From Mobula hypostoma (Eukaryota): a DNA stretch of 64,000 nucleotides. The notes under the pieces were generated by a model that was not told the DNA's origin, did not search any database, and saw nothing but the letters and a program-made list of their open reading frames with translations. Location: the NCBI RefSeq assembly GCF_963921235.1, contig NC_086108.1, forward strand, positions 54,314,001 through 54,378,000. The letters are read 5' to 3'. The translations under genes and the position numbers were made by a program. Shown here one piece after another: positions 3,570-58,439 of this stretch; position 1 is the stretch's first letter, and every line of letters starts with the position of its first letter.

Positions 3570-5355
3570 TGCCAGATTTTTTCTGATACCATCAAAATTG
3601 GCATCTCTTCAATTTAGAATCTCAACATGAGGACCAGACCTATCCTTCTCCATAATTATCTGGTAACTAGATTATACTAGATGCAAAGTGCTTCCTTACA
3701 TAAACTTCTGTCACTTGTCCCTCTACTTGTTTTAGTATGATCTGCAAATTTGGTCACAATGCTATCAGTTCCTTTATCCAGATCATGAATGTATAAAATA
3801 AAAAGTTGTAGTCCCAAAAATGACTGTTGTGGAACTCCACAACTGGATACTGTTATCCCAAGTCTCTGCCTTCTGCCAGTCAGTCTGCCCTAACACATTG
3901 TGCTGTTATCTTGATTAGCAGCCTCATCAGTGGTACCTTCTGAAAATCCAAGTACATAATGTCTACTGACTCTCCTTTGTCTAACCTGCTTGTTACTGCC
4001 TTAAATAATTCTAAAAGATTTGTCAGCAGTACAGTGTTATCATCTGCATTTGAAAGCTATGTGATGCTCCAGCAGCTTTGTGAGGAAGTACTACTAATCA
4101 AATGCATTGTAGGAGAACATTAAAAGCTGGTTAACCATTAACTGACTTACTTTCATTATTCCTCTCTTACTTTTCCTGGAATCTGGTCACAGGTGAGACA
4201 AAATCCCTGAAGATGTTTGAATATCTTTGCATTCTAATGAGGCTCCTTAAGATATGGCAAAGGACAGGCAGGTGCTGGTGGCCTCTTTTTCTTTTATTGG
4301 TGAGGTTGGAACAGCAAAGGGAAGGTACCAATTACAATGCCGGCTTACACAGGAGCCAGGAAGGAATGCTAATAATGGTAAGTAGGTTAGTTGGAATGTA
4401 ATCAAGTGCTGGTGGTGTGAAATATTGCCAAAGGATACAGTGGGATATAGATCAGTTGTAGATAAGGGCAAAGAAATTGCAAAAAGAGCTTAACTTGTCC
4501 AAATGTGTAATGCAAGAGAAGCTTGGATGATGAGAGAAGTTGTAAATTTAGTCAGAAAGGAAGTAAATGTAAGGGTGAGGGTATTTGAGGAATTTCGACA
4601 ACACAAGGAATTAAGAGTGCCTAATGGAGATGTAAAATGTCCTTAGCATGTCATAGTAAATACATTTAAAAACAAGAGAATGACCAGGGAGCGGGCAGGA
4701 CAGTTCAAAGACCAATGAAGGAATTTATGCCTGGAGTTGAAGGATGTCAGTGAAGCAATGATGTTGTTTCCATTGGTATTCACTCAGAAGGAGGACATGG
4801 AGTATGGTGAGACTAGTGTTCAGTTTTTTAATATGCTGGAGAATTTTGAGATCAAGAAGAAGATTGTGTTGGGTCTTTTCAAGAGCATTAAGGTGGATAA
4901 ATCATTGCTGTTTGATGGAATCTATTTCAGGTTATTGAGAGAGGCAAGAGAGGAGATTGCTGGGCCTTTGAAGATCTTAGTATACTTTCTAGCTTTGAAG
5001 GCAGAGAGTAGAGATAAAGGGACCATTTGCTGGATGAGGTCCTGAGGGTCTATGGAATAGCAAATGTTGTTCTCTTGTTCAAGGAGGGAAATGGGGATAA
5101 TCCAGGAGATTGTAGGTCTGTGACCCTCACATTAAAGGTATTGAAGACAGAGGATTCTTAGGGATAGGATTTACCCACATTTGAAAGAACATGGGCTAAT
5201 TAGGGACAGTCAGCTTGGCTTTCTTTGGTTGCCTCCTCAAAAGATGCAGTGATTGAAGGTAAGGCAGTGGATGTTATCTATGTGGACTTTGGCTAGGTCC
5301 CCCAGGGTAGATTGATTGAAAAGGTTAAGATACATGGAATCCATGTAAATTAGTA

Positions 5356-5703
5356 ACACACATCAAAGTTGCTGGTGAACGCAGCAGGCCAGGCAGCATC
5401 TATAGGAAGAGGCGCAGTCGACGTTTCAGGCCGAGACCCTTCGTCAGGACTAACTGAAGGAAGAGTGAGTAAGGGATTTGAAAGCTGGAGGGGGAGGGGG
5501 AGATGCAAAATGATAGGAGAAGACAGGAGGGGGAGGGATGGAGCCAAGAGCTGGACAGGTGATAGGCAGAAGGGGATACGAGAGGATCATGGGACAGGAG
5601 GTCCGGGAAGAAAGACGGGGGGGGGGTGACCCAGAGGATGGGCAAGAGGTATATTCAGAGGGACAGAGGGAGAAAAAGGAGAGTGAGAGAAAGAATGTGT
5701 GCA
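5356..5703 (-). mobile_element. Penelope-like element 3' tail fragment
   Basis: Near-identical to the tail of the PLE at ~50600-50940. Perfect 10-bp TSD TAAATTAGTA (5346-5355 and 5704-5713). Confidence 0.85.
5415..5452 (-). ncRNA. Minimal (type I) hammerhead ribozyme, intact core
   Basis: Minus strand reads UAGUC-CUGACGA-AGG(GUCUCGG)CCU-GAAAC-GUC^GACUG. It has the CUGANGA and GAAA core, stems I and II, and a loop-less palindromic stem III as in PLE minimal hammerheads. Confidence 0.85.
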
Positions 5704-6242
5704 TAAATTAGTAGTTTGGATTTGGAATTCACATCCATAGCAGATAGGGTAGCGGTGGAAAAGTGTTATTCTAGATGGAAGCTTGTAACCAGTGATGCTC
5801 TGCTGGAATCAATGCTGATACTGACTTGGCTGCAAATGTCGATGGGTTGGTTAGTAACCTTGCAGATGACACAAAGATTGGTGGAATTGTGGACAGTGAA
5901 GATGCTCATCAAAGGACACAGTAGGATATAGAATAGTTGTTATTGATGGAGAAGTTTTGATTGTTTAATTCATGGTATTGGTATACAGAAGGGTTTTGGT
6001 GCCCATGTCCATAGCTTGCTGAAAGTGACAGTGTTGATAGATATTGGTAAAGAAGATGTATGCCTTCATTGCTTGGAGCAAAGAGTATAAGAGTTTGGAA
6101 TTCTTGATGCAGTTATATTATACGTTGGTTAGGCCACACTTGGAATATTGCACACATTCTGATCACCACATTACCGGAAGGACGTGGAGGTTTTAGGGGA
6201 AGGTTCAGAGAATTTGATCAGGATGCTAATTAGATTAGAGGG

Positions 6243-12051: not shown

Positions 12052-12453
12052 CTAAGTAGACCTATCAGTTTTCTCTATGAGCGGGCTTTACAGTCGACCT
12101 CAAAAATAATGACAGTGTTGCTTGCTGCACTGTTTGCAACAGTGACTTTTCTATTGCCCATGGTGGGCTAAAATGTAAAAGACATGTTGAGGTGAGTTTA
12201 ACAGGTGTCATTTGTTCATTAGCATAGCTAACGTTATTTAAACTAGCTGGCTGGCTGCTAAGGAGCTACGCTATTGATGTCCTACGTGATGAGGCCAAAC
12301 TCTGTGTAGACTTGCTTAAAGATGTAATAGAATAAACATGATAATATATAATATAAGTGCAAACACAAAATAATTTGCAGATGCTGGGGTCAAAGCGACA
12401 CTCACAACACGCTGGAGGAACTCAGCAGGTCTGGCAGCATCAGTGGAAAAGAT

Positions 12454-12491
12454 CGGTCGACGTTTCAGGCTGGAACCCTTCGTCAGGACTG
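12454..12491 (-). ncRNA. Minimal hammerhead ribozyme (left PLE arm)
   Basis: Minus strand reads CAGUC-CUGACGA-AGG(GUUCCAG)CCU-GAAAC-GUC^GACCG. Confidence 0.8.
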
Positions 12492-13548
12492 TAGAGGGAA
12501 GGGGCAGAGGCTCTATAAAGAAGGTGGGGGGAGGGTGGGAAGGAGAAGGCTGGTAGGTTCCAGGTGAAGAACCAGTAGGGGGAAAGATAAAGGGGTGGGG
12601 GAAGGGAGGCAGAGAGGTGATAGGCAGGAAAGGTGAAGAAAGAATAGGAGAAAACACAATGGGTAGTAGAAGGAGGTGGAACCAAGAGGGAGGAGGTAGG
12701 CAGCTGGGGGAGAGGGCAGAGTGACATAGGGGATGGGAGGGGGAGGGAATTACCGGAAGTTGGAGAATTCTACGTTCATACCAAGGGGCTGGAGACTACC
12801 TAGACGGTATATGAGGTGTTGCTCCTCCATCCTGAGTTTAGCCTCATCATGGCAGTAGAGGAGGCCACGTACGGACATATCTGAATGGGAGTGGGAAGCA
12901 CTGTTGAAGTGGGTGGCTACTGGGAGATCCTGTCTGTTTTGGCGGACGGAGCGGAGGTGCTCGACGAAGCGGTCCCCCAATCTGCGTCGGGTTTCACCGA
13001 TGTAGAGGATGTAGAGGATTTCACCGATGTGAAACCCGTTGCAGATTGGGGGACCGCTTCGTCGAGCACCTCCGCTCCGTCCGCCAAAACAGACAGGATC
13101 TCCCAGTAGCCACCCACTTCAACAGTGCTTCCCACTCCCATTCAGATATGTCCGTACGTGGCCTCCTCTACTGCCATGATGAGGCTAAACTCAGGTTGGA
13201 GGAGCAACACCTCATATACCGTCTAGGTAGTCTCCAGCCCCTTGGTATGAACGTAGAATTCTCCAACTTCCGGTAATTCCCTCCCCCTCCTTTCCCCTAT
13301 CCCTATGTCACTCTGCCCCCTCCCCCAGCTGCCTACCTCCTCCCTCTTGGTTCCGCCTCCTTCTACTACCCATTGTGTTTTCCCCTATTCTTTCTTCACC
13401 TTTCCTGCCTATCACCTCCCTGCCTCCCTGCCTCCCTTCCCCCACCCCTTTATCTTTCCCCTTACTGGTTTTTCTCCTGGAATCTACCAGCCTTCTCCTT
13501 CCCACCCTCCCCCCACCTTCTTTATAGGGCCTATTCCTCTTCCCCCTA

Positions 13549-13585
13549 CAGCCCTGACGAAGGGTTCCAGCCCGAAACGTCGACC
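13549..13585 (+). ncRNA. Minimal hammerhead ribozyme (right PLE arm), stem I mismatch
   Basis: Reads CAGCC-CUGACGA-AGGG(UUCCAG)CCC-GAAAC-GUC^GACCA. The core is intact and stem I is weakened. Confidence 0.75.
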
Positions 13586-14392
13586 AATCTTTTCCACTGA
13601 TGCTGCCCGACCTGCTGAGTTCCTCCAGTGTGCTGTGAGTGATGTATAATATAAGCGCATATTTTAATGTCACATTTTCTGCATATACCCAACTTGGTTT
13701 GCAGATTAGACAAAATCACTAAACAAAGTATTACATACACCCGTGGAGGTCGATGGGCGGAGGGGGTGGGGTGGATATGGTGTTGTGGGGGGGTAGGGGT
13801 ACCTCCCTGAAATGAGTTTTTGCAGGGTGGGATGTCTGGATAGGTGATTTTAACTTTCCACATATTCACTGACCCTCCTATACTGTAAAAGGGATAAATA
13901 GGAAAGAGTTTGTAAAATGGGTTCAGGAAAGTTTCCTTAATCAGTATGTAGAAATCCCAACTAGAGAGAGTGCGATACTAGATCTCCTATTAGAGAATGA
14001 GATAGGGCAGCAGGGACATTTGCACTTTACATCTAGTGATCACAATACTATTAGTTTCAAAGTAAATATGCAGAAAGATAGGTCTGATCTGGTCTGTTTG
14101 AGATTCTGAGTTGGAGAAAGGCCAACTTTGATGGTATCAAAAAGGATCTGGTAAATGTAAATTGGGACAGGCTGTTTTCTGGCAAAGGTGTACTTGGTAA
14201 GCGGGAGTCCTTCTAAAGTGAAATTTTGAGAGTACAGTGTTGTATATTCCTGGCAGAGTAAAAGGCAAGGGTAACAGGTATTGGGAATCTTGGTTTTGAG
14301 CAATTTTGAGGCCCTGGTTAAGAAAAAAAGAGTTGTATAGCAAGTATAGGCAGGTAGGAATAAATGAAGCCATGGACCATATAAAAATTAGA

Positions 14393-35059: not shown

Positions 35060-35657
35060 AAGAGAAGATCTGCAGAATGCTGCAAGTCCAAAGGAACACA
35101 CACAGAATGCTGGAGGATCTCAGCAGGCCAGGCAGGATCTATGGAAATGAGTAAACATTATTCATTTTTGTTCATTGTTCATTATTCCTGACATTCCGAG
35201 ATATCAGTCCATGCATGGCCTCCTGTACTGCCACGATGAGGCCACATGCAGATTGGAGGAGCAATACATAATATTGCATCCAGGTAGCCTCCAACCAGAT
35301 GGCATGAACATAGTTTCCTTCAACATCCAGTAATGCCTTGCCCCCTTCACCATTCCTATTTCCCTCTCTCATCTTATTTCCTTACCTGTCCATCAACCCA
35401 TCTGGTGCTCCTACCCCTTAAGCCCTTTAAATCTTTCACCAATCAACTTCCCAGCTCTTTGATTCACCTTCCCCGTTCCCAGTTTCACCTATAACCTGCC
35501 ACCTTGTACTTCTTCCCCGCCCCCTCATCTTCTTACTCTGACTTTTCTTTCTTTCCAGTCCTGATGAAGGGTCTCAGTCCAAAACATCAACAATTTACTC
35601 TTTTCCATAGGTGCTGCCTAGCCTGTGGAGTTCCTCCAGGATTGGGTGTGTGTTGCT
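35060..35657 (+). mobile_element. Old PLE 3' fragment with short inverted 5' arm and degenerate hammerhead (35556-35592)
   Basis: GIY-YIG C-terminal remnant (HGLLYCHDEA..RLEEQ...SLQPDGMN). CTGATGA...AAAACATC remnant core. 35060-35160 is an inverted tail copy. Confidence 0.75.
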
Positions 35658-44454: not shown

Positions 44455-44865
44455 TATTGTAGGATTTCTCTTTTTCCTCATCCATCCTCTTATCTCCTGT
44501 CTGCCCATTGCCTCCCTCTTGTGCTCCTCACCCACTTTTCTTTATTTCATGGCTGCATGGCCTCTGTCCTCTTCTATCAGACTTACCCCACCCCCCACTT
44601 CTCCAGCCTTGTATCTTTTTCACCAATCAACTTCCCAGCTCTTTACTTCACCCCTCCCGTTTCAGGTTTCACCTATCACCTTGTGTTTCTCTCTCCCCCC
44701 ACCTTTTAAATCTACTCCCCAGCTTTTTTCTACAGTCCTGACAAAAGGTCTCGCCCCAAAATGTTGACTGTACTTTTTTTCATAGATGCTGCCTGGCTTG
44801 CTGAGTTCCTCCAGCATTTTGTGTGTGTTGCTTGATTTCCAGCATCTGCAGATTTTCTCTTGTTT
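44455..44865 (+). mobile_element. PLE 3' tail with CpG-decayed hammerhead (44731-44772)
   Basis: Reads TACAGTC-CTGACAA-AAGG..CCCC-AAAATGTT-GACTGTA. Stem I is perfect and the core is mutated. The tail GATGCTGCCTGG..TGCTGAGTTCCTCCAGCA follows. Confidence 0.8.
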
Positions 44866-45038
44866 GTACAAGACAAAGCTATCAAGTAATGTCAAAAAAG
44901 TGTTTCTATATAACTTTTAAAAGTTAATTTTAGAAAATGCATCAGGGGAATGATACAAATCAAGGAGACAAAAAATCAATAAAATGAGTACTTGGATCCT
45001 TTTCACAATTATTTATAAGTAACATCCCAAATCTAGTA

Positions 45039-45862: not shown

Positions 45863-46514
45863 TAGTAAATTGCGGAAAAAGTAGAAAGCAAAAATTACAT
45901 TATCTAGGGAAATGGTACTTGCTGATTTCTTCAAAGATTTAACTAATAATTCCCTGGATTATGATAGATTCATCCAAAGATCTCTAAAGTAATAGTTGAT
46001 ATTATTTTAAACTTGCCAAAATTCCCTGGGTGAGGGGGAGATGTTTAAAGTGATTGTTCAAAGGTACTGTAGCAGGCCATTACTTGGGTAAATGCAGCAA
46101 GCCTTTTTTTGAAAGGAAATTGTGTATGACTAATTTATTGGAGCTCCTTTGTGCTTCATGTATTTTTAGGCTTTTGGTAACGTGTTGCATCAAACTTTGT
46201 TGGAAGATAAAAGCAAGTGATTTGTGATGTAACATATAGGCACGAATGGAAAATTGGATCACTAATAGAAAAAGACTGGGTTTGGATTTTTGTCTTTTTT
46301 GCGATGGAAAAATTTATTGAACGATAGACCATAGAGATCAATACTGGGGCTTCAACTTATTCTATTTTCATAAATGATTTGAAGGAACTTAAGCTGCAGT
46401 GATACAGTTGATAAATTTACTGATAAGACAAAGGACAGCAAAATTATGAAGATGTCACAAAGAGAAAGATGGGTTAAGTGAGTGGATGGTGATCCACCAA
46501 ATGAAATATTGTGA

Positions 46515-47633
46515 AAGATGAGAGGTGACCTGATAGAGGTGTATAAGATGATGAGAGGCATTGATCGTGTGGATAGTCAGAGGCTTTTTCCCCAGGACTG
46601 AAATGGTTGCCACAAGAGGACACAGGTTTAAGGTGCTGGGGAGTAGGTACAGAGGAGATGTCAGGGGTAAGTCTTTTTACTCATAGAGTGGTGGGTGCAT
46701 GGAATGCACTGCCGGCAACAGTGGTGGAGGTGGATACGATAGAGTCTTTTAAGATACTTTTAGATAGGTACATGGAGCTTAGTAAAATAGAGGGCTATAG
46801 GTATGCCTAGTAATTTCTAAGGTATGGACATGTTTAATGCTGATAAATGTGAGGTGCTGCATTTTGGTAGGAGTAATCAAAATAGGATATACATGGTAAA
46901 TGGTAGGGCATTGAAGAATGCAGTAGAACAGAGGGATCTGGGAATAATGGTGCATGGATCCCTGAAGGTGGAATCTCATGTGGATGGGGTGGTGGAGAAA
47001 GCTTTTGGTATGCTGGCCTTTGTGAGTCAGAGCATTGAGTATAGGAGTTGGGATGTAATATTGAAATTGTACAAGGCATTGGTGAGGCCAAATTTGGAGT
47101 ATTGTGTACAGTTTTGGTCACCGAATTATGGGAAAGATGTCAACAAAATAGAGAGAGTACAGAGAAGATTTACTAGAATGTTACCTGGGTTTCATCACCT
47201 AAGTTACAGAGAAAGGTTGAACAAGTTGGGTCTTTATTCTTTGGAACGTAGAAGGTTGAGGGGGGACTTGATAGAGGTATTTAAAATTATGAGGGGGATA
47301 GATAGAGTTGACGTGGATAGGCTTTTTCCAATGAGAGTGGGAGAGATTCAAACAAGAGGACATGAGTTGAGAGTTAAAGGGCAAAAGTTTAGGGGTAACA
47401 TGAGGGGGAACTTCTTTACTCAGAGAGTGGTAGCTGTGTGGAACGAGCTTCCAGCAGAAGTGGTTGAGGCAGGTTTGATGTTGTCGTTTGAAGTTAAATT
47501 GGATAGATATATGGACAGGAAAGGAATGGAGGGTTATGGGCTGAGTGCAGATCGGTGGGACTAGGTGAGAGTAAGAGTTCAGCATGGACTAGAAGGGCTG
47601 AGATGGCCTGTTTCCGTGCTGTAATTGTTATAT
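46515..47633 (+). mobile_element. Two tandem CR1 3' fragments; the second (from ~46823) has an open ORF2 C-terminus
   Basis: ORF 46824..47564 (246 aa) reads FNADKCEVLHFG...LVRPNLEYCVQFWSP...TRGHEL. Confidence 0.9.
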
Positions 47634-47819
47634 GATGGAGGTGCGGGGGGGGAATGGGAAATATAGAAAGTTATTTTTAAGTAAGAGATTGCAGAAAGGT
47701 TTTGGGATTAGTGCATGTTTTGCAAAAATAAACTACTGCAGGTAGATTAAGTGATTAAGAAAGCTAACAGTGTTCTTTTATTACAATAAAAATTGGATGC
47801 AAAAGTAGTGATATGGGGA

Positions 47820-47945
47820 AAACAAATTGCTAAAGGAACTCAGGTAGCACCTATGGAGAGGAATAAACAGTTGATGTTTTGGGCTGAGACATTTCCTCAG
47901 GACTAGAAAGGATGGAGGTGGAAGATAGAATAAGAAACAGGGTTG
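47820..47945 (-). mobile_element. Old PLE tail remnant with degenerate hammerhead (47867-47904)
   Basis: Minus strand reads AGTC-CTGAGGA...CCC-AAAACATC-AACTG. Confidence 0.55.
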
Positions 47946-48019
47946 GATGACCCCTTCTTTTTAAACCTTGTCTCCTGGCTTTTATATAGAAACATCTGAT
48001 TTTTTTCTCTCCTTAGCAG

Positions 48020-48109
48020 GATCCTCCATCTTCAGCACAACAATCACTTACCCGAGGGGATGGAATCCTGGGTCCAGCACCTTTGGGAAACATAATGAAT
48101 AATATCAAG
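48020..48109 (+). CDS. RAVER2: RAVER exon: (Q)DPPSSAQQSLTRGDGILGPAPLGNIMNNIK
   Basis: ttttttctctcctTAGCAG tandem acceptor and AAG|GTAACA donor. Phase 0-0. PRI motif GILGPAP. Confidence 0.8.
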
Positions 48110-49264
48110 GTAACAGTCAAATCCATTTCAGTTGACTGGTCTAAGAATTTAAATATAGATTTTTTATTGCTCGTTTAAGTACCATGTAGGGAGAATAAAG
48201 TTATGCTTTCTGTTCAGGTTGCAATGGATTTGTGTAGTAATAGTGCTTAAGTAACACAATGCCAGCAATAACTTGATCATTCAAATGAAACATCTGCCCC
48301 TCTTTCTTTGTTGTATTTGTATTTTATTTTGTCAAAATAATGTATGAAAGAATTGTCAAAGTCATCACTCGGTCAACATCAATAAAACGGATGATGTGGT
48401 CTTTATCACAATGATGTGGTGTGAACTTGCAATGTACAATTTAGCTGCCTGGTTTTCTGCATAATAGTAACCTAACTATATTTCAACATTTACAATAAGT
48501 TTTTCTGTTAAAAAATTGTTTCATAAATACAAATATGACTTTTCCCTTTGAAGAGAAGTGATATTATAGATAGAATCTAATTAGCTATTTTGATGTCAAA
48601 AATATTTCTTTGTTTTCCCTTTGCCATTTTCTTCTAAAGGTTTTTGTATATTGAATTATGCTGTATAGGTACTTAACTATATTTATTGGTCATTATTTAG
48701 AAAAATATTCAGGAATATTTTACAGTGTTAAAGATGATTTATAGTATTTTTCTGTGATTTTGTCTTGGGCAAGCTATCAAACCAAGAGAATCAAAGCCTA
48801 TTCTTATTTACACATGGTATCTAGATAATAAATAGGTACAAGTAGACAGAAAAATGTAACGTTACACATAGATTGCATGTACATAATACATATGGTGGTG
48901 AAGATCTCAGATAGGTGCTTTGCTTATCTGTCTCAGAATTTAAGAAGGTCATCTTTGTCTTGTTTTTCGATCAGTCATGGATGATCCAGAAAATTTGGTT
49001 TTTCTTCCTACTTAACTATACTACTCACAGCAAATTAGTGACATGGAAGTGTTTGGTAGGTCACAGGAAACAAGCATTTGGCAGAAACCACACAGTCATG
49101 AAGAGTTGGAGAGAAAGAGCAAACTCCACACAAATAGCATCTGAGGACAGGATCAAACACAGATCCCCAGAGCTATGAGGCAGAAGCATTTGCTGCTTTG
49201 TCATCACACTGACTCCTAAAATTAAAGCTTCTAAAAGAGCAAATATGTAATCAACAGTACAGTA

Positions 49265-50243
49265 TTGGTCGCCGGCAGGTGGTAAGAGTGGGCTCCCTCA
49301 CCTCTACCCCACTGACCCTCAACACAGGTGCCCCTCCTTTAAGCCCCTTCCTTTACTGTCTGTATACCAGTGACTGTGTTGCCACCCACAGCTCCAATCT
49401 GCTAATTAAGTTTTCTGACGACACTACACTGATTGGCCTAATCTCAGATAATAATGAGGCAGCCCACAGCGAGGAAGTCATCACCCTGACAGTGGTGTCA
49501 AGAAAGCAACTTCTCCCTCAACGTCGCAAAAACAAAGGAGCTGATTGTGGACTACAGGAGGAATGGAGACAGGCTAGCCCCTATAGATATCAATGGATCT
49601 GGGGTTGACAGTGTGAACAACTTTAAGTTCCTTGGCATAAACATCACTGAGGATCTCACATAGTCTGTACATACTGGCTGTGTGGTGAAAAAGGAACAAC
49701 AGTACCTCTTTTACCTCAGACGGTTGAAGAAGTTTGGTATGGCCCCCAAATTCTAAGAACTTTCTATAGGGGCACAACTGAGAGCATCCTGACTGGCTGC
49801 ATCACCGCCTGATATGGGAACTGTACTTCCCTCAATCGCAGGACTCTGCAGAGAGTGGTGCAGACAGCCCAGTGCATCTGTAGATGTGAACTTCCCACTA
49901 TTCAGGACATTTACAAAGACAGGTGTGTAAAAAGGGCCCAAAGGATCATTGGAGACTCGAGTCGCCCCAACCACAAACTGTTTCAGCTGCTACCATCCGG
50001 GAAACGGTACCACAGCATAAAAGCCAGGACCAACAGGCTCCAGGACAGCTTCTTCCACTAGGCCATCAGACTGCTTAATTCATGCTGATGCAACTGTATT
50101 TCTATTTTATACTGACTATCCTGTTGTAAGTAATATTTATTATTAATTGCTATAATTGCACATTTGAATGGAGATGTAACGTAAAGATTTTTACTCCTCG
50201 TATATATGAAGGATGTAAGTAATAAAGTCAATTCAATTCAATT
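49265..50243 (+). mobile_element. Rex1/Babar LINE 3' portion
   Basis: Peptide VRVGSLTSTPLTLNTGAP...KFSDDTTLIGLI. AATAAAG(TCAAT)n tail. Confidence 0.9.
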
Positions 50244-50559
50244 ATTCAACTCCCTGTCCAGAATTCGTACCGCATTCCAAGCAGGACGTAAAGAATAGAG
50301 TTTAATTGATTGTGAGGGAATTGCTGGGTAGGGAAAAATGTTAATAGTTGAAAATGTGAGTGTGACAATGAGCAAAATAGCTGGCAATTTGTAAGAAACT
50401 AGCAGAGGCTCAGTTGTTTGCATTGGGAAGAACTGAAGTGCAATGTGTCATTTGCATTAATAGCTAACATAACCAAGGGATGTGTTGAGGGCAGCCTGTA
50501 AGTGTTGCCACACTTATGTCAGCAGAATGACATAACAGCAACAAAACAAAACATCAGCA

Positions 50560-52155
50560 AAACAACACACGAGGAATTCTGCAGATGCTGGAAATTCAAG
50601 CAACACACATCAAAGTTGCTGGTGAACGCAGCAGGCCAGGCAGCATCTCTAGGAACAGATACAGTCGACGTATCAGGCCGAGACCCTTCATCAGGACTAA
50701 CTGAAAGAAGAGCTAGTAAGAGATTTGAGAGGGGGAGATCCAAAATGATAGGAGAAGACAGGAGGGGGAGGGATGGAGCCAAGAGCTGGACAGGTGATTG
50801 GCAAAAGGGATATGAGAGGATCACGGGACAGGAGGCCCAGGGAGAAGGAAAAGGGGGAAGGGGAACCCATAGGATGGGCAAGGGGTATAGTCAGAGGGAC
50901 AGAGGGAGAAAAAGGAGAGAGAGAAAGAATGTGTGTATATAAATAAATAATGGATGGGGTACCGGGGGGTGGGGCATTAGCAGAAGTTAGAGAAGTCAAT
51001 GTTCATGCCATCAGGTTGGAGGCTACCCAGACGGAATATAAGGTGTTGTTTCTCCAAGCTGAGTGTGGCTTCATTTTTACAGTAGGGGAGGCCATGTATA
51101 GACATATCAGAATGGGAATGGGATGTGGAATTAAAATGGGTGGCCACTGGGAGATACTGCTTTCTCTGGCAGACAGAGTGTAGGTGTTCAGCAAAACGAT
51201 CTCCCAGTCTGCGTCGGGTCTCGCCAATATATAGAAGGCCACATCGGGAGCACTGGACGCAGTACATCACCCCAGCCGACTCACAGGTGAAGTGTTGCCT
51301 CACCTGAAAGGACTGTCTGGGGCCCTGAATGGTGGTAAGGGAGGAAGTGTAAGGGCATGTGTAGCACTTGTTCCGCTTACTAGGATAAGTGCCAGGAGGG
51401 AGATCAGTGGGGAGGGATGGCGGGGGGGGGGTGAATGGACAAGGGAATCGCGTAGGGAGTGACCCCTGCGGAAAACGGAGGGGGGGGAGGGAAAGATGTG
51501 CTTCCTGGTGGGATCCCGTTGGAGGTGGCGGAAGTTATGGAGAATAATATGTTGGACCCGGAGGCTGGTGGGGTGGTAGATGAGGACCAGGGGAACGCTA
51601 TTCCTAGTGGGGTGACGGGAGGATGGAGTGAGAGCAGATGTGTGTGAAATGGGCGAGATGCATTTCAGAGCAGAGTTGATAGTGGAGGAAGGGAAGCCCC
51701 TTTCTTTAAAAAAGGAGGACATCTCCCTCGTCTTGGAATGAAAAGCCTCATCCTGAGAGCAGATGCGGCGGAGACGGAGGAATTGTGAGAAGGGGACGGC
51801 ATTTTTGCAAGAGACAAGGTGAGAAGAGGAATAGTCCAGATAGCTGTGAGAGTCAGTAGGCTTATAGTAGACATCAGTAGATAAGCTGTCTCCAGAGATA
51901 GAGACAGAAAGATCTAGAAAGGGGAGGGAGGTGTCGGAAATGGACCAGGTAAACTTGAGGGCAGGGTGAAAGTTGGAGGCAAAGTTAATGAAGTCAACGA
52001 GCTCAGCATGTGTGCAGGAAGCAGCGCCAATGCAGTTGTCGATGTAGCGAAGGAAAAGTGGGGGACAGATACCAGAATAGGTTTGGAATGACTGTACCTC
52101 TTCCTAGAGATGCTGCCTGGCCTGCTGTGTTCACCAGCAACTTTGATGTATGTTG
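50560..52155 (-). mobile_element. Penelope-like element: RT C-terminus, GIY-YIG endonuclease and tail, with a short inverted arm (52090-52155)
   Basis: ORFs give RQHFTCESAGVMYCVQCSRCGLLYIGETRRRLGDRFAEH (GIY-YIG) and FFKERGFPSS. Hammerhead at 50662-50699 with GAAA changed to GATA. Possible 8-bp TSD CATCAGCA (50552-50559 and 52156-52163). Confidence 0.9.
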
Positions 52156-53849
52156 CATCAGCATCAAACCCCTTTCCTAACCATCCACAAATTTCAGACA
52201 CTGATGCTGTCTCCAACCTGCAGTCCTTGGCCTTGGGCGCTCAGACTAGCAGAAAATTGGGTCTCCAGCCTTCAGTCCATGGCCCAGACTTGCAGACATC
52301 AGACTTACGACCTCCAGATATGCTGACAGAAGCTTCAACCTTCAGGCTTTGATCTCAAAATTTGCTGACGTTGGCCTCCAGTATCAACCCCAAGATTTGC
52401 TGATCACAAGACTTTGGATTTCTAGTCTTGCACAGACCTCTGACTCCAGGACTTGCTGACCTGGGCATCATCCTCGGGGCCTCCCAACTACAGTCCTTGA
52501 CCATAGGGATCGCTGGTCTTCATCCTCAGCGCCTGCTGCCTGACCCCTGGAGATTGTTTATCTTCAACCTCTGACGTGGACTCCTACTACCATTTACTGC
52601 CCCTAATCTCTAACACCCCCTCATCCCTGTCCCTAAATCCTAATTTGACCCCCTAACACCCCACAATGTCCTGAAAATGTACCAGGTAGGTTAATTGATC
52701 ATTGTAAATTGTCTCATAATTAGGTTGAGTTCAATCAGGATTGATGGGAGTTGCTGGGCAGTGCTGTTCAAAGGGCTGGAAGGGCCTTTTCCATGATATA
52801 TATTTTAAAATGAATATCCCTATGAATTTTTAAAAAACAAGCACGTCTAAGCCATAACCTCAATGGACCTTGCACCTTGACATTATCTTGACCAGACATT
52901 TTTATTATTGTATACGAATTTGTTCTCTTTACGATGAAGTAAAAGTGGTTCAGCTTAAACATTGCATGTTCATATATAAAAAGTACTGGGCAATGAAATC
53001 TGTGTGCACGTCTTTAGTCCTGAGTTCAGCTATTGTCTGGGCTCTGGACTAGATAGAAATTAAAAAGGTTACACATTTTGGTGTTTGTAAAAGTTAAAAG
53101 AAAAGTTGTATACTATATGCAACTCCCTCCCCCCACCCCCACCTCCTCCACATCATTGTGTAGTTATTTAAAACACTTAAAATATTCAACTTCGGGTATT
53201 ACCTTTTCCTCCAATAGCTGATTTGCTCTCATTTTAAGCAGCTCCCTATACTTCCACCAGATTGAACTGATGCAGCTTCAACAGTAGAATTCCCAATTTA
53301 AGAGTATGGAAGTCTGGCAGAATTCAATAGAAACTGCAGAAATCTTGGAGCCATTGTTTTGATTGAAAAACTGCAATGAAGCCTCTACTTTAGAATGGGT
53401 CAGTTTTCCAATGAAGGTCTTTATAGATGAGTTGCCCTTATAATTTGAGGGAGTCCTGAGGAACAATGGATATCTACAGAACTCTGGTGCTTTGAGTTTT
53501 GAAATATAGTTTGACCCTTGATAAGGTGATGTGATTTCAGACTACTTCAATGAGTCTTGATATGTCCATTTCATTGGAGGTTATTATATAATGATTAGAA
53601 ATGGAAACAATTTGTTTGCTCTTCACCTTTAAACACTCTTTCCTCCTTTAATCTTTCTCCACAGCTGACACCATCATTGGTCATAACAGTGATCAAAGGT
53701 CAAAGCTGATAGTTTATTGTTACGTATGATTCATTTGCTGGAGTATCTTTATCTGATATTCTGATTTTCCATGGAAAAACTAGTGTGGCTATCACTATTG
53801 ACGCATATTTTTGCCTGAATTTGAGATTGAGCTCTTGTTTCTCTTTAAG

Positions 53850-53996
53850 TCTCCAGTGACTGGCCAGAAACGTGCATCTACCTACCTCCTACCTTCCCCA
53901 GAAGTGAGCCCTGATGGCAGCTACGTTGGCCAACACTCGCAAGGCCTGGGTGGTCATTATGCTGATTCCTATTACAAGAAAAAGAGAATATTTTGA
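53850..53996 (+). CDS. RAVER2: RAVER terminal coding exon: [48 protein letters not shown]
   Basis: cttgtttctctttaAG acceptor. Hallmark RAVER C-terminus (GQHSQG...Y..KKKR, basic NLS-like end). TGA at 53994-53996. Confidence 0.95.
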
Positions 53997-55255
53997 TATG
54001 CAATTACTTAGCTGTTCTTTCTTTTACTTAATACTGGGACATTGTTTGAAATGTGCAACTGTCCAATGTCGGTTCATTTTTGTTTAGAAAAAATAGATTT
54101 TAAATTAAGTTTTAATGAAAGTTCTTTAAATTTTATTTGTTGAAATTGAATTTTTAAAAAAACAAACTTTTGACCTCCTCTGCACTGCACTCCTGAAGCA
54201 GGTTGAGAGATTAGCATGCATTTACGTTCACGCTTGATGCAAGCTGTTCAGGCATAATTGTTTGAATCTAGCTGTACAATCTGGTTTCAAATTCAAAGAT
54301 TTTGCAGAGTCGAACCAACTTTAGCATATTTAATTGAATTTGGAGCAGTTCATAGTAATATTTGAATGTTTCACTGTATGATGGTGTTTGGGGGAGGGAA
54401 ATGGACTATGAAAAGATAAATGTAAATTCCTTTCCCACTTCAATTTACTTTACCCCTCTAATCATTTCACATCATGTACACTTTTATTTAGTTATTGAAA
54501 TACACTATTTTAAAATATAATTAGGTCACAAATTTATATCATACATTTAAAATGTACATGGAAATAAGTTTTAACCATGAATGACCCACTTGCTCTCTGA
54601 CTGCACGGACTTGTTTATTTGATATAGTTTTGTCTTTAGATTTACACTGTGCAGTACACACTGTCTCACACCAATCAAAGCAAAAATGTTCATTTTTGTG
54701 TAAGATTTTAATACTTATGCATTTTCAGCAATATTTTTTTATTCCCTCATTCCCTCAATGAGATGGTTTTTTTTTCCTGTTGCTTTGAATGTTTCTCCTG
54801 GATCCATGTTTTCTTGATGGGATAATTATTTTGAGAATTTTCAATTTATTAGTGTGTTGCATACTGGTTAGTGGAATGGAATTGTTTGGGGACTATGTTT
54901 GGGTTTGCAGTGTTTGCCTAGGAAAAATATGGGAGTAATTTCACTGCAGTTGAACCTTAAACATCTTTTGCCTGTTTTTGAAGAGCAAAGCAAAGTAAAA
55001 ATCTTGATTTCCCACCCCCCCCCCATTTTTCTTTGTCCTCTTTTGTTTTATTAGGTGAATTTAAGATTTAAAAAAGCATTCTTCTCAGCTGTCCCAAGGC
55101 ATTATCTTAATATTGTGAAACTGTAATATTGTTTGTATTACCTGAAACCATCATGATCTAGCTCAGTTTTTACCAAAAGGGCATCTGGGGGAAAACCTGA
55201 AGTGACTATGTCAAATACAACTTGTTCTGGAAATAAAATTGTCTGTTTAATACAG
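53997..55255 (+). other. Probable 3' UTR of the RAVER gene
   Basis: Repeat-free, U-rich stretch ending shortly after AATAAA. Confidence 0.6.
55232..55237 (+). promoter_or_regulatory. Polyadenylation signal AATAAA
   Basis: Followed about 30 nt later by a T/GT-rich element (TTTTTGTTTTGCTC..TGTTGTGT). Confidence 0.6.
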
Positions 55256-55850
55256 GTCAGAATGCCTTTTTGTTTTGCTCACTGCTGTTGTGTCAGAATA
55301 GATAGGTGGGAGAGTTGGAAAATTCAAGTATGCCGATTAATTTATTAATGAGTTTCGTGGATGAAGTCCTGATATCAAATGATCCCAGGAGGCATTCCCT
55401 TTACAAATATTAAGCTGTGTAAGGGTGGAATGAGATAAGGAAAGTTTTGGAGCAAATAGCAGTGGGTTCAATATTTACTTATTCTATAAGTTGTCTACAG
55501 ATGTACAAAATAATAATGGCCACTTAAGTTGATCTGAATAATAATGTAGATAAATTAGTGGTTTCTGTATGACATTATTTTGTGATAATGCTTTAACACT
55601 TAAGCTATTCAGTGAAGCTAGAATAACACTTGACCCGCATAAGGGCATTGGTGAAGGACACCCTGGAGAAAACTGATTTACTCTATTTTATGAGTCAACT
55701 TGGATTATATGGAATCAACTTTGACTCTAGTTAATAATTTAATTCAAGAATTGTTTAAAACCTTTGCACATGTGCAGTGCTTGATTCAGTGCGGATGGTT
55801 GTTCCTCTGTTTTTAAACCATTTGAAATTTAATGATTGGCTACTAATATA

Positions 55851-56447
55851 CGAGGGGTGATTGATAAGTTCATGGCCTAAGGTAGAAGAAGTCAATTTTA
55901 GAAAACCTAACACATTTATTTTTCAACAGTCCCCTCCTACATTTACACACCTAGTCCAGCGGTCGTGGAGCATACGGATCATGGACCTCCAGAAAGTGTC
56001 CACAGCATGGGTGATTTATAAGTTCGTGGCCAAAGGTAGAAGGAGATGAGTTATACAGCTCTTGTTACATGCAAATGCAGTTCAATTCTTTGAGTGATTA
56101 TGCAGAAAGTTTGAAGTTAGTAACTCATCTCCTTCTATCTTAGGCCATGAACTTATCAATCACCCCAGTTGAGTTATTAACTTCAAACTTTCTGCATAAT
56201 CACTCAAAGAGTTGAACTGCATGTGCATGTAACGAGAGCTGTATAACTCATCTCCTACCTTAGGCCAGAAACTTATCAAACACCCCCCTGCTGTGGACAC
56301 TTTCTGGAGGTCCAAGATCCGTATGCTCCACAACCACTGGACTAAGTGTGTAAGTGTAGGAGGGGACTTTGTTGAAAAATAAATGTGCTAGATTTTCTAA
56401 AATTGACTCCTTCTACCTTAGGCCACAAACTTATCAATCATCCCTCG
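55851..56447. mobile_element. Mariner-like foldback MITE
   Basis: TA|CGAGGGGTGATTGATAAGTT ... AACTTATCAATCATCCCTCG|TA. Almost entirely self-complementary. Confidence 0.85.
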
Positions 56448-58439
56448 TAGATCTTGAATATGGTGACTTTATTTGTAATACTCTAAGCTGGAAGCAGGAA
56501 ACTGACAATCCATGCTATGTTTGTTGATACTGATGTGGTTACCCTTGATGAAGGTGATTGTGCAGAAGCAGCTATTTGGAACAGAAAGTGCAGTGTCAAC
56601 AAGGTTAACAAGGTGTAAGTGATGCAGCAGTGCTCTAAAGGAAGGAAGGAGATTCAGATAACAAGTTCAACCTGCCCATTATCCACCCTTTTTGGAGTTG
56701 AATTTAACTATCAGAAGTTCTTAGTCATGATTGAAGCAGAAGTTAATGTTATCTAGTTCTGTCTTGTGTTTTGGAGTCCTACAAGTCCATCCTGCAATCC
56801 TCTTCATTCAATGGTGAATATATCATCCACAAATTAATCAAATAGGCAATGATAATCCAGAAGTGATAGCTTCTGAAGTAATCCAGAAGGTTACTCTGTA
56901 CCATCTAAATAATTTACAATCTATTTGCTGTTTAAATACCTTTATAATGGTCAAGTTCAAAAGAACGGAATTGTCCAAGTGCAATGGCTTTTCTCCTTTA
57001 AAACTCCCCCACACAAGCCTCTTGTCATTGTTGGATATGACAGACGACCAGCTATAATTGTGAGAATAATCAGTGTCATAAAATGTAAATCTTTTGAAGA
57101 AATCTCTATTTATCTTGCAGATGGTAAATAATGTGCCATTCGGGTTGATACTTGCCATATGGTATTTGATATTTTGATATTTACCATATGGTATGTTGTA
57201 AATTACTCTCTAATTTGTCCATATCTCCATATATGCAAATAAATAGCTTGTACCATTACACCTTCTGATACTGGATTTCTGTTCAACTACCAAATTAATA
57301 CTCGTGTAGGTTTCTAAATGTTTTCAGTCTAATTTTTCCAGTTGTAAGTTGGCTTTGTGCAGCTTTCCCAGGCCTTAGCACCAAAAGAAATGGCTATAAA
57401 TGGGAAGGATAAGAAATGTTCCAATTAGCTTCTCTTTTTTTTTGCTTTCTCCTGAAAGCCACTTGCCATCTCTTAGTTGTTGATTATAAGCTGGTCTTGG
57501 AGGCAATGACTAATTTTCAGGACATCAGTACAGGCAACCCATCAAAATCAAGCAGGCAGAGAGAGAGGATACAAGTGCAGATGCAATTGAAAAGTAGTGG
57601 ATTTTGCTGATGGAAAATTAAATCGCAAGATGGAAGGTATTATAAGGAGGATTTGTCAGGGTGGGTGCATCAGAAGAAAAGAATGTAGGAATGGAGGAAT
57701 TTGGTGAAACACTGACATTGGAAAATTGGTTGCTGGGACTGATATTGAAATACAGATAAAAATGAAGTTTTTAGATTTATCAAAGTCTACGTTTACCTGA
57801 AGGATGAGCTTAAAGATCAGATTTTGGATACAATGAATTGTGATGGAAGGCTCATGTTATATGTCAAGCTTGGAGGGCTAAGACGAGAACCTAAGAAATA
57901 AGAGTAAGAATTGCCAGTGTCCTGTGTGCCAGCTCGGCCATTCATTAACTTTATGGCTGATGTTCTACCATGGTGCCATTTTCTTCAATGTTACTTTGCT
58001 ATTGGTATAAGATGAACTGAATGTACAAAGTACATTTATTATCAAAGTATGTATGCAGTATACAACTCTGAAATTTGCCTTCCTCAAAGTCAGTAACAAA
58101 ACAAAGAAGAACCATGGAACCAACTCATCCAAAGAAAAAACATCAAACATGAAACCCCCTTCCCCCACATAAAGGTAACAGAGAAAAAGAGTGAAAATAC
58201 AGAATGAAAAAGGAAAACAAAATCAAAAGGCATATTTCAGTACAGTTTAGGCTCTTCTAGGGTCTTGGAAGGATGGAGGCAAGTGATGATGTAGACATGG
58301 ATGTATCTAGACTTGACGGTATGATGTCAGGCATAGTGCGCAAATGTTAGAATGCCATTGTATTAACGGTTGTATTTATGGGAACCAGCAGAAGGCTTTG
58401 ATTTTGTCAGGTCAAGTTGGTGGAAATTCAGGTGCATTT

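What the first reader, a model, noticed from the sequence alone, without database searches (positions are those of the whole stretch)
50560..52155. Inverted arm of a Penelope-like insertion begins exactly at the predicted hammerhead cleavage site
Seen: the minus-strand PLE is 5'-truncated in the RT at 52089. It is joined head-to-head to a + strand tail copy starting GACTGTACC at 52090. In the element's own tail the hammerhead reads ...C-GTC^GACTGT, so the arm starts at the first nucleotide after the predicted scissile bond. Known: PLEs carry minimal hammerheads and often form inverted structures. Inference: the template RNA 5' end was made by ribozyme cleavage, and a second priming event in the tail ran off that end (twin-priming-like integration). 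That would be a genomic footprint of in vivo self-cleavage.
Basis: partly seen in the sequence, partly recalled or inferred. Interest (0 to 1): 0.8.

Follow-up and report, generated by a model that had tools for sequence, protein, structure and literature searches.

The report
Two-armed Penelope insertion near ribozyme cut
This is one head-to-head insertion of a very common Penelope-like jumping gene whose short arm begins at, or one base before, the predicted cut of the element's hammerhead ribozyme, but sampled copies begin far more often 32 bases earlier than at the cut, so the match is likely a coincidence of end-joining rather than proof that the ribozyme cuts in cells.

Summary
The anatomy is real: a 5'-truncated Neptune-type Penelope-like element (minus strand, 50564-52088) is joined head-to-head to a 67-nt arm (52090-52156) inside an 8-bp target duplication. 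'Exactly at the cut' is not provable. Base 52089 is a T where both the RT and the hammerhead's last uncut base predict C, so the arm starts at -1 or +1. A 7-of-9 match to the RT lies 3 nt away. In 1.6 Mb of evenly spaced genome, 10 of 41 young 5' starts near the ribozyme fall at -32/-31, its 5' edge, and 1 of 41 at the cut (1.9 expected). Genome-wide, the cut is used at 0.68% (0.42-1.19) against 0.55% averaged over nearby positions; a no-cleavage model leaves about 1.5-fold excess. One junction class (-18 joined to +1) is clearly over-used, so a small cleaved fraction is not excluded. About 1,600-1,900 copies should start at -1/+1, so some windows will show this. Twin priming is supported; cleavage as the cause is not shown. 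The scan noted the same coincidence and the -32 pile-up before on other DNA of this genome.

The parts
50552..50559 (+). Target-site duplication, left copy (8 bp exact; possibly 14 bp with a 2-nt gap)
50564..52088 (-). Long arm: 5'-truncated Penelope-like element of Neptune type (end of RT, linker, GIY-YIG endonuclease, 3' region, pseudo-LTR), about 95% identical to family consensus
50564..50599 (-). About 36-nt 'tail' (+68..+103) present on the long arm only; marks the distal RT start site (inferred)
   Evidence: PMC11167929
50663..50698 (-). Minimal type I hammerhead (-32..+4); predicted cut between 50667 and 50666; this copy has an A-to-T change in the GAAA box
50977..51534 (-). Frame carrying the Zn-finger-like linker and GIY-YIG domain with CxxC and two His
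   Evidence: Pfam GIY-YIG E=0.0078, below cut-off
51300..52088 (-). C-terminal part of the reverse transcriptase frame, truncated just before the YIDD motif (YIDN here)
   Evidence: motif names recalled
52089..52089 (.). Junction base T; both RT and hammerhead C17 predict C (1-bp overlap, CpG decay inferred)
52090..52156 (+). Short inverted arm, +1..+67 of the pseudo-LTR, 2 differences from family consensus, no tail
52156..52163 (+). Target-site duplication, right copy (first base shared with arm end)

Best explanation
This is one insertion of a Neptune-type Penelope-like element whose two arms were likely primed separately from the two nicked target strands and then joined head-to-head, with the short arm's start at -1/+1 likely set by ordinary truncation and microhomology joining rather than by ribozyme cleavage. 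Shown: head-to-head arms, one target duplication, one long and one short 3' end, a 1-bp overlap at the junction, a genome-wide pile-up of 5' starts at -32/-31. Inferred: the endonuclease nicks both strands 8-14 nt apart; each 3' end primes reverse transcription at one of two internal sites (about +67 and +103); the cDNA ends anneal through short matches and are repaired. Inferred further: the same priming sites exist in the 5' pseudo-LTR of the transcript, so many cDNAs run off an intact RNA 5' end at -32 (likely the transcription start), having crossed an uncut ribozyme.
For: One long plus one short 3' end in 19 of 19 random pairs. In the -18/+1 class the tail sits on the +1 arm in 4 of 7 loci, so one arm is not a copy of the other. 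10 of 41 young starts at -32/-31 (P about 5e-9), 1 of 41 at -3..+4 with 1.9 expected. Cut-site filter 236 hits over about 35,000 exact copies = 0.68% (0.42-1.19) versus 9 of 1628 = 0.55% for the same filter over all positions -70..+36. 0 of 100 arm starts in -8..+6. Largest cut-site class is the -32 end annealed to +1..+4 by the hammerhead's own stem I (20 of 100 listed rows, hand count; 40 of 40 scored hits). 16 of 44 non-recurrent rows keep C at -1 (hand count). Diverse loose 5' ends at -31 (25 contigs) and -32 (29 contigs) in two DNA runs. Near-full-length copies continue from the pseudo-LTR into the ORF and start at about -14, +36 and beyond -400. In the anole element the ribozyme is not needed for insertion in vitro and no RNA reads ended at the cut (PMC11167929).
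Against: The cut-site rate is about three times that of +6..+36 (2 of 992). A no-cleavage model predicts 0.37-0.65% for clean joins, about 0.34-0.40% after weighting by my estimate of their share, against about 0.56% observed once 17 of 100 non-junction rows are removed: 1.5-fold, range 0.9-2.9. The -18/+1 class is 9 of 100 rows (model 2-3.5%) and fills 38 of 40 scored hits, against 1 of 100 for an equal 3-bp match at -15 and 5 of 40 for the -9/-2 class. One of 8 random junctions with both starts near the ribozyme is a perfect fold at the cut (L192), a class I could not count genome-wide. The 7-of-9 match needs a 3-nt gap and was found after the fact.
Confidence: 0.68

Rival explanations
1. 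The short arm was copied from an RNA whose 5' end had been made by hammerhead self-cleavage; RT ran off that end and the cDNA joined the long arm. A few per cent of templates would be cleaved in vivo.
For: Arm start compatible with +1. Modest excess at the cut. The -18/+1 and -32/+1 classes stand in a ratio of about 1:2, as a fixed +1 end seeking 3- or 4-bp partners would give, while the null model predicts 1:7 to 1:14. The hammerhead segment is the best kept part between young consensus and 50 older copies (81.7% versus 54.8% upstream and 72-76% downstream; selection required hits reaching -25). The anole ribozyme cleaves when protein is added (PMC11167929).
Against: No spike in unselected samples (1 of 41; 0 of 100). 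36 of the 41 young starts in -75..+40 are called upstream of the cut, so most templates were uncut. Even with a true 1.5-2-fold excess, half or more of +1 starts are background. The junction base fits -1 as well as +1.
Confidence: 0.22
2. The short arm arose by fold-back (self-priming) of one cDNA or by later deletion at the centre of a longer inverted repeat, so its start says nothing about RNA ends.
For: Self-priming was proposed for head-to-head Penelope structures (PMC3846280, passages). Near-symmetric junctions are common (7 of the 25 random junctions, counting L192). Some junctions look like multi-step template switches (L036, L225).
Against: Here the arm joins RT sequence 1.4 kb from the ribozyme with no hairpin to fold on. 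The tail lies on either arm (4 of 7 on the +1 arm), which copying one cDNA cannot give.
Confidence: 0.1

Closest known systems
Canonical endonuclease-bearing Penelope-like element insertions (PMC8557442, passages; PMC3846280, passages)
   Same: 5' truncation, adjacent inverted 5'-truncated copy, pseudo-LTR, 30-40 bp tail at one end only, short target duplication, linker motif of the Neptune clade.
   Different: Nothing in the architecture. Those passages give no map of arm starts against the ribozyme.
Poseidon element of the green anole, PAc (PMC11167929, parts 1-2 of 4 read)
   Same: Two internal RT start sites bounding the tail, both target strands cut and extended, hammerhead just upstream.
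   Different: Other clade; there the ORF begins inside the ribozyme, here the first long-frame ATG is at +141. They found no RNA reads ending at the cut and no need for cleavage in vitro.
Minimal hammerheads of metazoan Penelope-like elements (PMC4209133, parts 1-2 of 4 read)
   Same: Short helix I, unpaired base before helix II, palindromic 15.2-16.2 with no helix III, predicted to work as a dimer.
   Different: Helix II is only 4 bp here. Activity of this family is untested; reported activity of such motifs is low.
Twin priming of LINE-1 (recalled, no call)
   Same: Both target strands prime; two cDNAs joined through microhomology inside one target duplication.
   Different: In LINE-1 the second primer anneals anywhere internally and arms do not overlap; here both arms start at fixed sites in the same repeat and so duplicate it.

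Membership tests
Endonuclease-bearing Penelope-like element | RT followed by C-terminal GIY-YIG endonuclease with CCHH motif | tested here: met
   CxxC between the GIY and YIG equivalents plus two His in the window frame and family consensus. Pfam GIY-YIG only E=0.0078. The RT fragment had no Pfam or PDB hit; RT motifs read by eye, names recalled.
Endonuclease-bearing Penelope-like element | Pseudo-LTR: 3' end repeated ahead of the ORF | tested here: met
   3 of 14 loci (L295, L299, L303) run from the tail repeat into the ORF start.
Endonuclease-bearing Penelope-like element | [quoted passage not shown] | tested here: met
   19 of 19 random pairs.
Neptune clade | CX2-5CxxC linker between RT and endonuclease | tested here: met
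   C-X4-C-X2-C in the family consensus; first Cys is Ser in this copy. Definition from PMC8557442.
Neptune clade | Placement in the RT tree | not tested
   No reference elements were held.
Minimal hammerhead ribozyme | CUGANGA and GAAA boxes, GUH cut site, helices I and II | tested here: met
   Family consensus. This copy's own motif has one GAAA change. The minimum-energy fold of the monomer is a rod that keeps helices I and II but pairs the core; it is no more stable than shuffles. No hammerhead hit in Rfam.
Minimal hammerhead ribozyme | Self-cleavage at GUC | not testable with these tools
   No assay; only assembled contigs, no raw RNA reads, were offered.
Ribozyme-defined 5' junction (as recalled for R2 elements) | 5' ends of insertions concentrated at the cut site | tested here: not met
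   1 of 41 at the cut versus 10 of 41 at -32/-31; excess at most about 2-3-fold.

The most novel reading that the evidence does not exclude
The genome records two kinds of RNA 5' end for this element: a capped start at -32, the first base of the hammerhead (about 13% of young copies, often with an extra G), and a self-cleaved end at +1 (under 1% of copies, including this arm). Their ratio would measure ribozyme cleavage in the germ line at a few per cent of templates, the first in vivo trace of Penelope hammerhead activity.
Probability: 0.25. Interest if true: 0.68.

Novelty: new member of a known kind. Interest (0 to 1): 0.3.

Why it matters
Whether Penelope hammerheads cut in cells is open (PMC4209133, PMC8557442, PMC11167929). 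This family has about 170,000 young copies (79 in 1.6 Mb), enough to settle it from DNA alone. The sample already says that most short cDNAs crossed an uncut ribozyme and stopped at its 5' edge, which caps cleavage at a small share of templates and points to -32 as the RNA start. The single junction in this window adds nothing on its own.

Tried and rejected
Rfam scan of 46000-58000: no hammerhead match. DNA search with the tail alone returned nothing because its words are too common. Sequencing runs: no RNA holder on record, all contigs, so RNA ends could not be read; no evidence either way. Loose-end tables show only 6 rows per run under an unknown selection rule, so the absence of +1 there is weak. 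The search seeded with the +3/+1 junction returned mostly +1 starts preceded by A; it is biased by its seed and is not a test, and my first reading of its 52-nt hits as folds at another palindrome was wrong (they are +10/+1). Same-length recurrences were 11 of 40 there and 10 of 40 for a control fold at -58. The search seeded with a -32 junction that has G in front is biased for the cap-G question: 5 of 9 starts at -32 had G. The -9/-2 control is not clean, since its overlap includes +1 and two CpGs. Perfect folds at the cut could not be counted: the four held (L192, L258, L266, L272) all carry a change at or near the junction. Position-by-position genome-wide counts at control sites were not obtained. 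RT fragment against Pfam and PDB: no hit. Literature searches for a map of insertion ends against the ribozyme found none besides PMC11167929; its supplement text gave no match and its figures S1-S2, which show insertion ends, could not be seen; bioRxiv supplements were not looked at.

Full report
Coordinates: +1 is the G after the predicted cut (window 50666, minus strand); -1 is the C before it. The window lies in a 3.48-Gb genome, which earlier notes call a cartilaginous fish (not checked by me).

Observation. The arm at 52090-52156 is 94% complementary to 50600-50666. The long arm runs 50564-52088 on the minus strand and carries the end of an RT frame and a GIY-YIG frame. An 8-bp duplication flanks the unit, so it is one event. 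The long arm ends near +103 and the short arm at +67. A consensus of 23 copies gives a minimal hammerhead at -32..+4 and a C-X4-C-X2-C linker, the Neptune mark (definition in PMC8557442). This copy's own hammerhead has lost an A of the GAAA box.

The junction. At 52089 the family RT predicts C and the ribozyme's -1 base is C; the window has T followed by G. The simplest reading is a shared C that decayed as a CpG. The arm then starts at -1 or +1, and the sequence cannot tell which. Three bases further, the family RT matches the arm's first nine bases at seven positions. Only 18 of 2780 body positions have such a match nearby, but I chose the test after seeing it and it needs a 3-nt gap.

Genome-wide count at the cut. 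A pattern for the 24 bases from +1 with three non-family bases upstream found 236 places. The exact 24-mer occurred 16 times in 160 evenly spaced 10-kb stretches, or about 35,000 times genome-wide, so the rate is 0.68% (0.42-1.19). The same filter applied at every position from -70 to +36 in the random sample gave 9 of 1628 (0.55%): 5 of 360 at -70..-36, 2 of 88 at -35..-27, 0 of 82 at -26..-3, 0 of 106 at -2..+5, 2 of 992 at +6..+36. By hand, the 100 listed rows are 20 joins to a partner ending at -32, 9 to a partner at -18, 7 of a related template-switch type, 3 near-symmetric, 6 internal deletions, 11 tandem duplications and 44 others, of which 16 keep C at -1.

Unselected starts. Of 79 young tail copies (88% or more) in the random 1.6 Mb, 41 start in -75..+40. 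Ten start at -32/-31 (P about 5e-9 against a flat profile) and one at -3..+4, where 1.9 are expected. That one (L192) is a perfect fold on the 6-bp palindrome around the cut and could be two cleaved ends or a 6-bp overlap. In 50 head-to-head junction calls from random and RT/endonuclease-selected loci (85% or more, so without L192), 0 of 100 arm starts lie in -8..+6. Contigs of two DNA runs from two organisms show diverse loose ends at -31 (25 contigs) and -32 (29 contigs).

Microhomology. Of 24 junctions selected for starting at the cut, 13 have 3-4 bp of overlap, against 4 of 50 unselected. The commonest class joins a -32 end to +1..+4 through the ribozyme's own helix I, the only 4-bp match that end has within 350 nt; it fills 40 of 40 scored hits. 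It needs no cleavage. A model with no special role for the cut predicts 0.37-0.65% for clean joins. Weighted by my rough share of clean joins (22%) this is 0.34-0.40%, against about 0.56% observed without deletions and duplications: 1.5-fold, range 0.9-2.9. Against my reading, the -18/+1 class is 9% of rows where the model gives 2-3.5%, and it fills 38 of 40 scored hits, while an equal 3-bp match at -15 appears once and the -9/-2 class 5 times in 40 (an unclean control). A real population of +1 ends would explain this; so would an RT pause at the base of helix II, where random starts are dense (-26 to -19: 6 of 41).

Mechanism. In 19 of 19 random pairs with both 3' ends in the tail region, one arm is long and one short. 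In the -18/+1 class the tail is on the +1 arm in 4 of 7 loci, so the arms are separate cDNAs. This fits the anole element, which cuts and extends both strands and starts RT at two internal sites bounding the tail (PMC11167929). Three of 14 near-full-length loci show the tail repeat running into the ORF, whose first long-frame ATG is at +141. The priming sites therefore also lie in the 5' end of the transcript, and cDNAs primed there would run off its start. The -32 base sits in an initiator-like context (consensus recalled), and 8 of 13 starts at -32 from sets not chosen for that base have G in front (P 0.002-0.02, after the fact), as copying a cap would give (recalled). This is a lead: non-templated purines from the partner cDNA or a 3' splice site at the pyrimidine tract just upstream are alternatives. 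Either way those cDNAs crossed an uncut ribozyme. Starts at -32/-31 are 12.7% of young copies (6-22%); any excess at +1 is under 1%.

Look-elsewhere. About 1,600-1,900 copies should start at -1/+1, 3-4% of 64-kb windows, or 9-11 of the 304 windows read in this genome. Two other first readers flagged the same coincidence.

Literature seen: PMC11167929 and PMC4209133, parts 1-2 of 4; PMC8557442, PMC3846280 and PMC3681739, search passages; bioRxiv 10.64898/2026.07.22.740005, part 1 of 5; others as listings only. LINE-1 twin priming, R2 ribozyme junctions, cap-derived G and the initiator consensus are recalled.

Verdict. A real and ordinary two-armed Penelope insertion. Twin priming is supported. 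Cleavage as the cause of this arm's start gets about 0.22. The family-wide map of starts is worth completing, chiefly for the -32 peak and the -18/+1 class.

Noticed in passing
G000 random sample L091-L250; window equivalent 50698: 5' starts pile up at -32/-31, the first base of hammerhead helix I, in an initiator-like context; 8 of 13 starts at -32 have a G in front. Possible capped transcription start recorded in DNA.
   Followed up: partly
L032-L035, L043, L046, L051; One junction register (-18 joined to +1 over 3 bp) recurs at 38 or more loci, more than a no-cleavage model predicts.
   Followed up: partly
L107, L109, L142, L144, L151, L192, L197: Near-symmetric junctions, both arms starting within 5 nt of each other, are 7 of 25 random junctions; both cDNAs may often stop at the same broken end of one RNA.
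   Followed up: no
L279-L290: Joins to a -32/-31 end often hold 1-5 extra purines (set biased by its query).
   Followed up: no
window 5344-5705, 12372-13622, 35069-35657, 44612-44867: Further copies of this element family: one close (86-92%) and three older (71-78%), two of them with pieces on both strands.
   Followed up: no
window 55846-56452: A 600-bp nested inverted repeat, 92-94% complementary, with a 38-nt unit repeated three times; looks like a miniature DNA transposon.
   Followed up: no
window 46513-47564 and 49213-50240: Decayed LINE-like RT frames on the + strand, the second ending in a short tandem repeat (assignment recalled).
   Followed up: no
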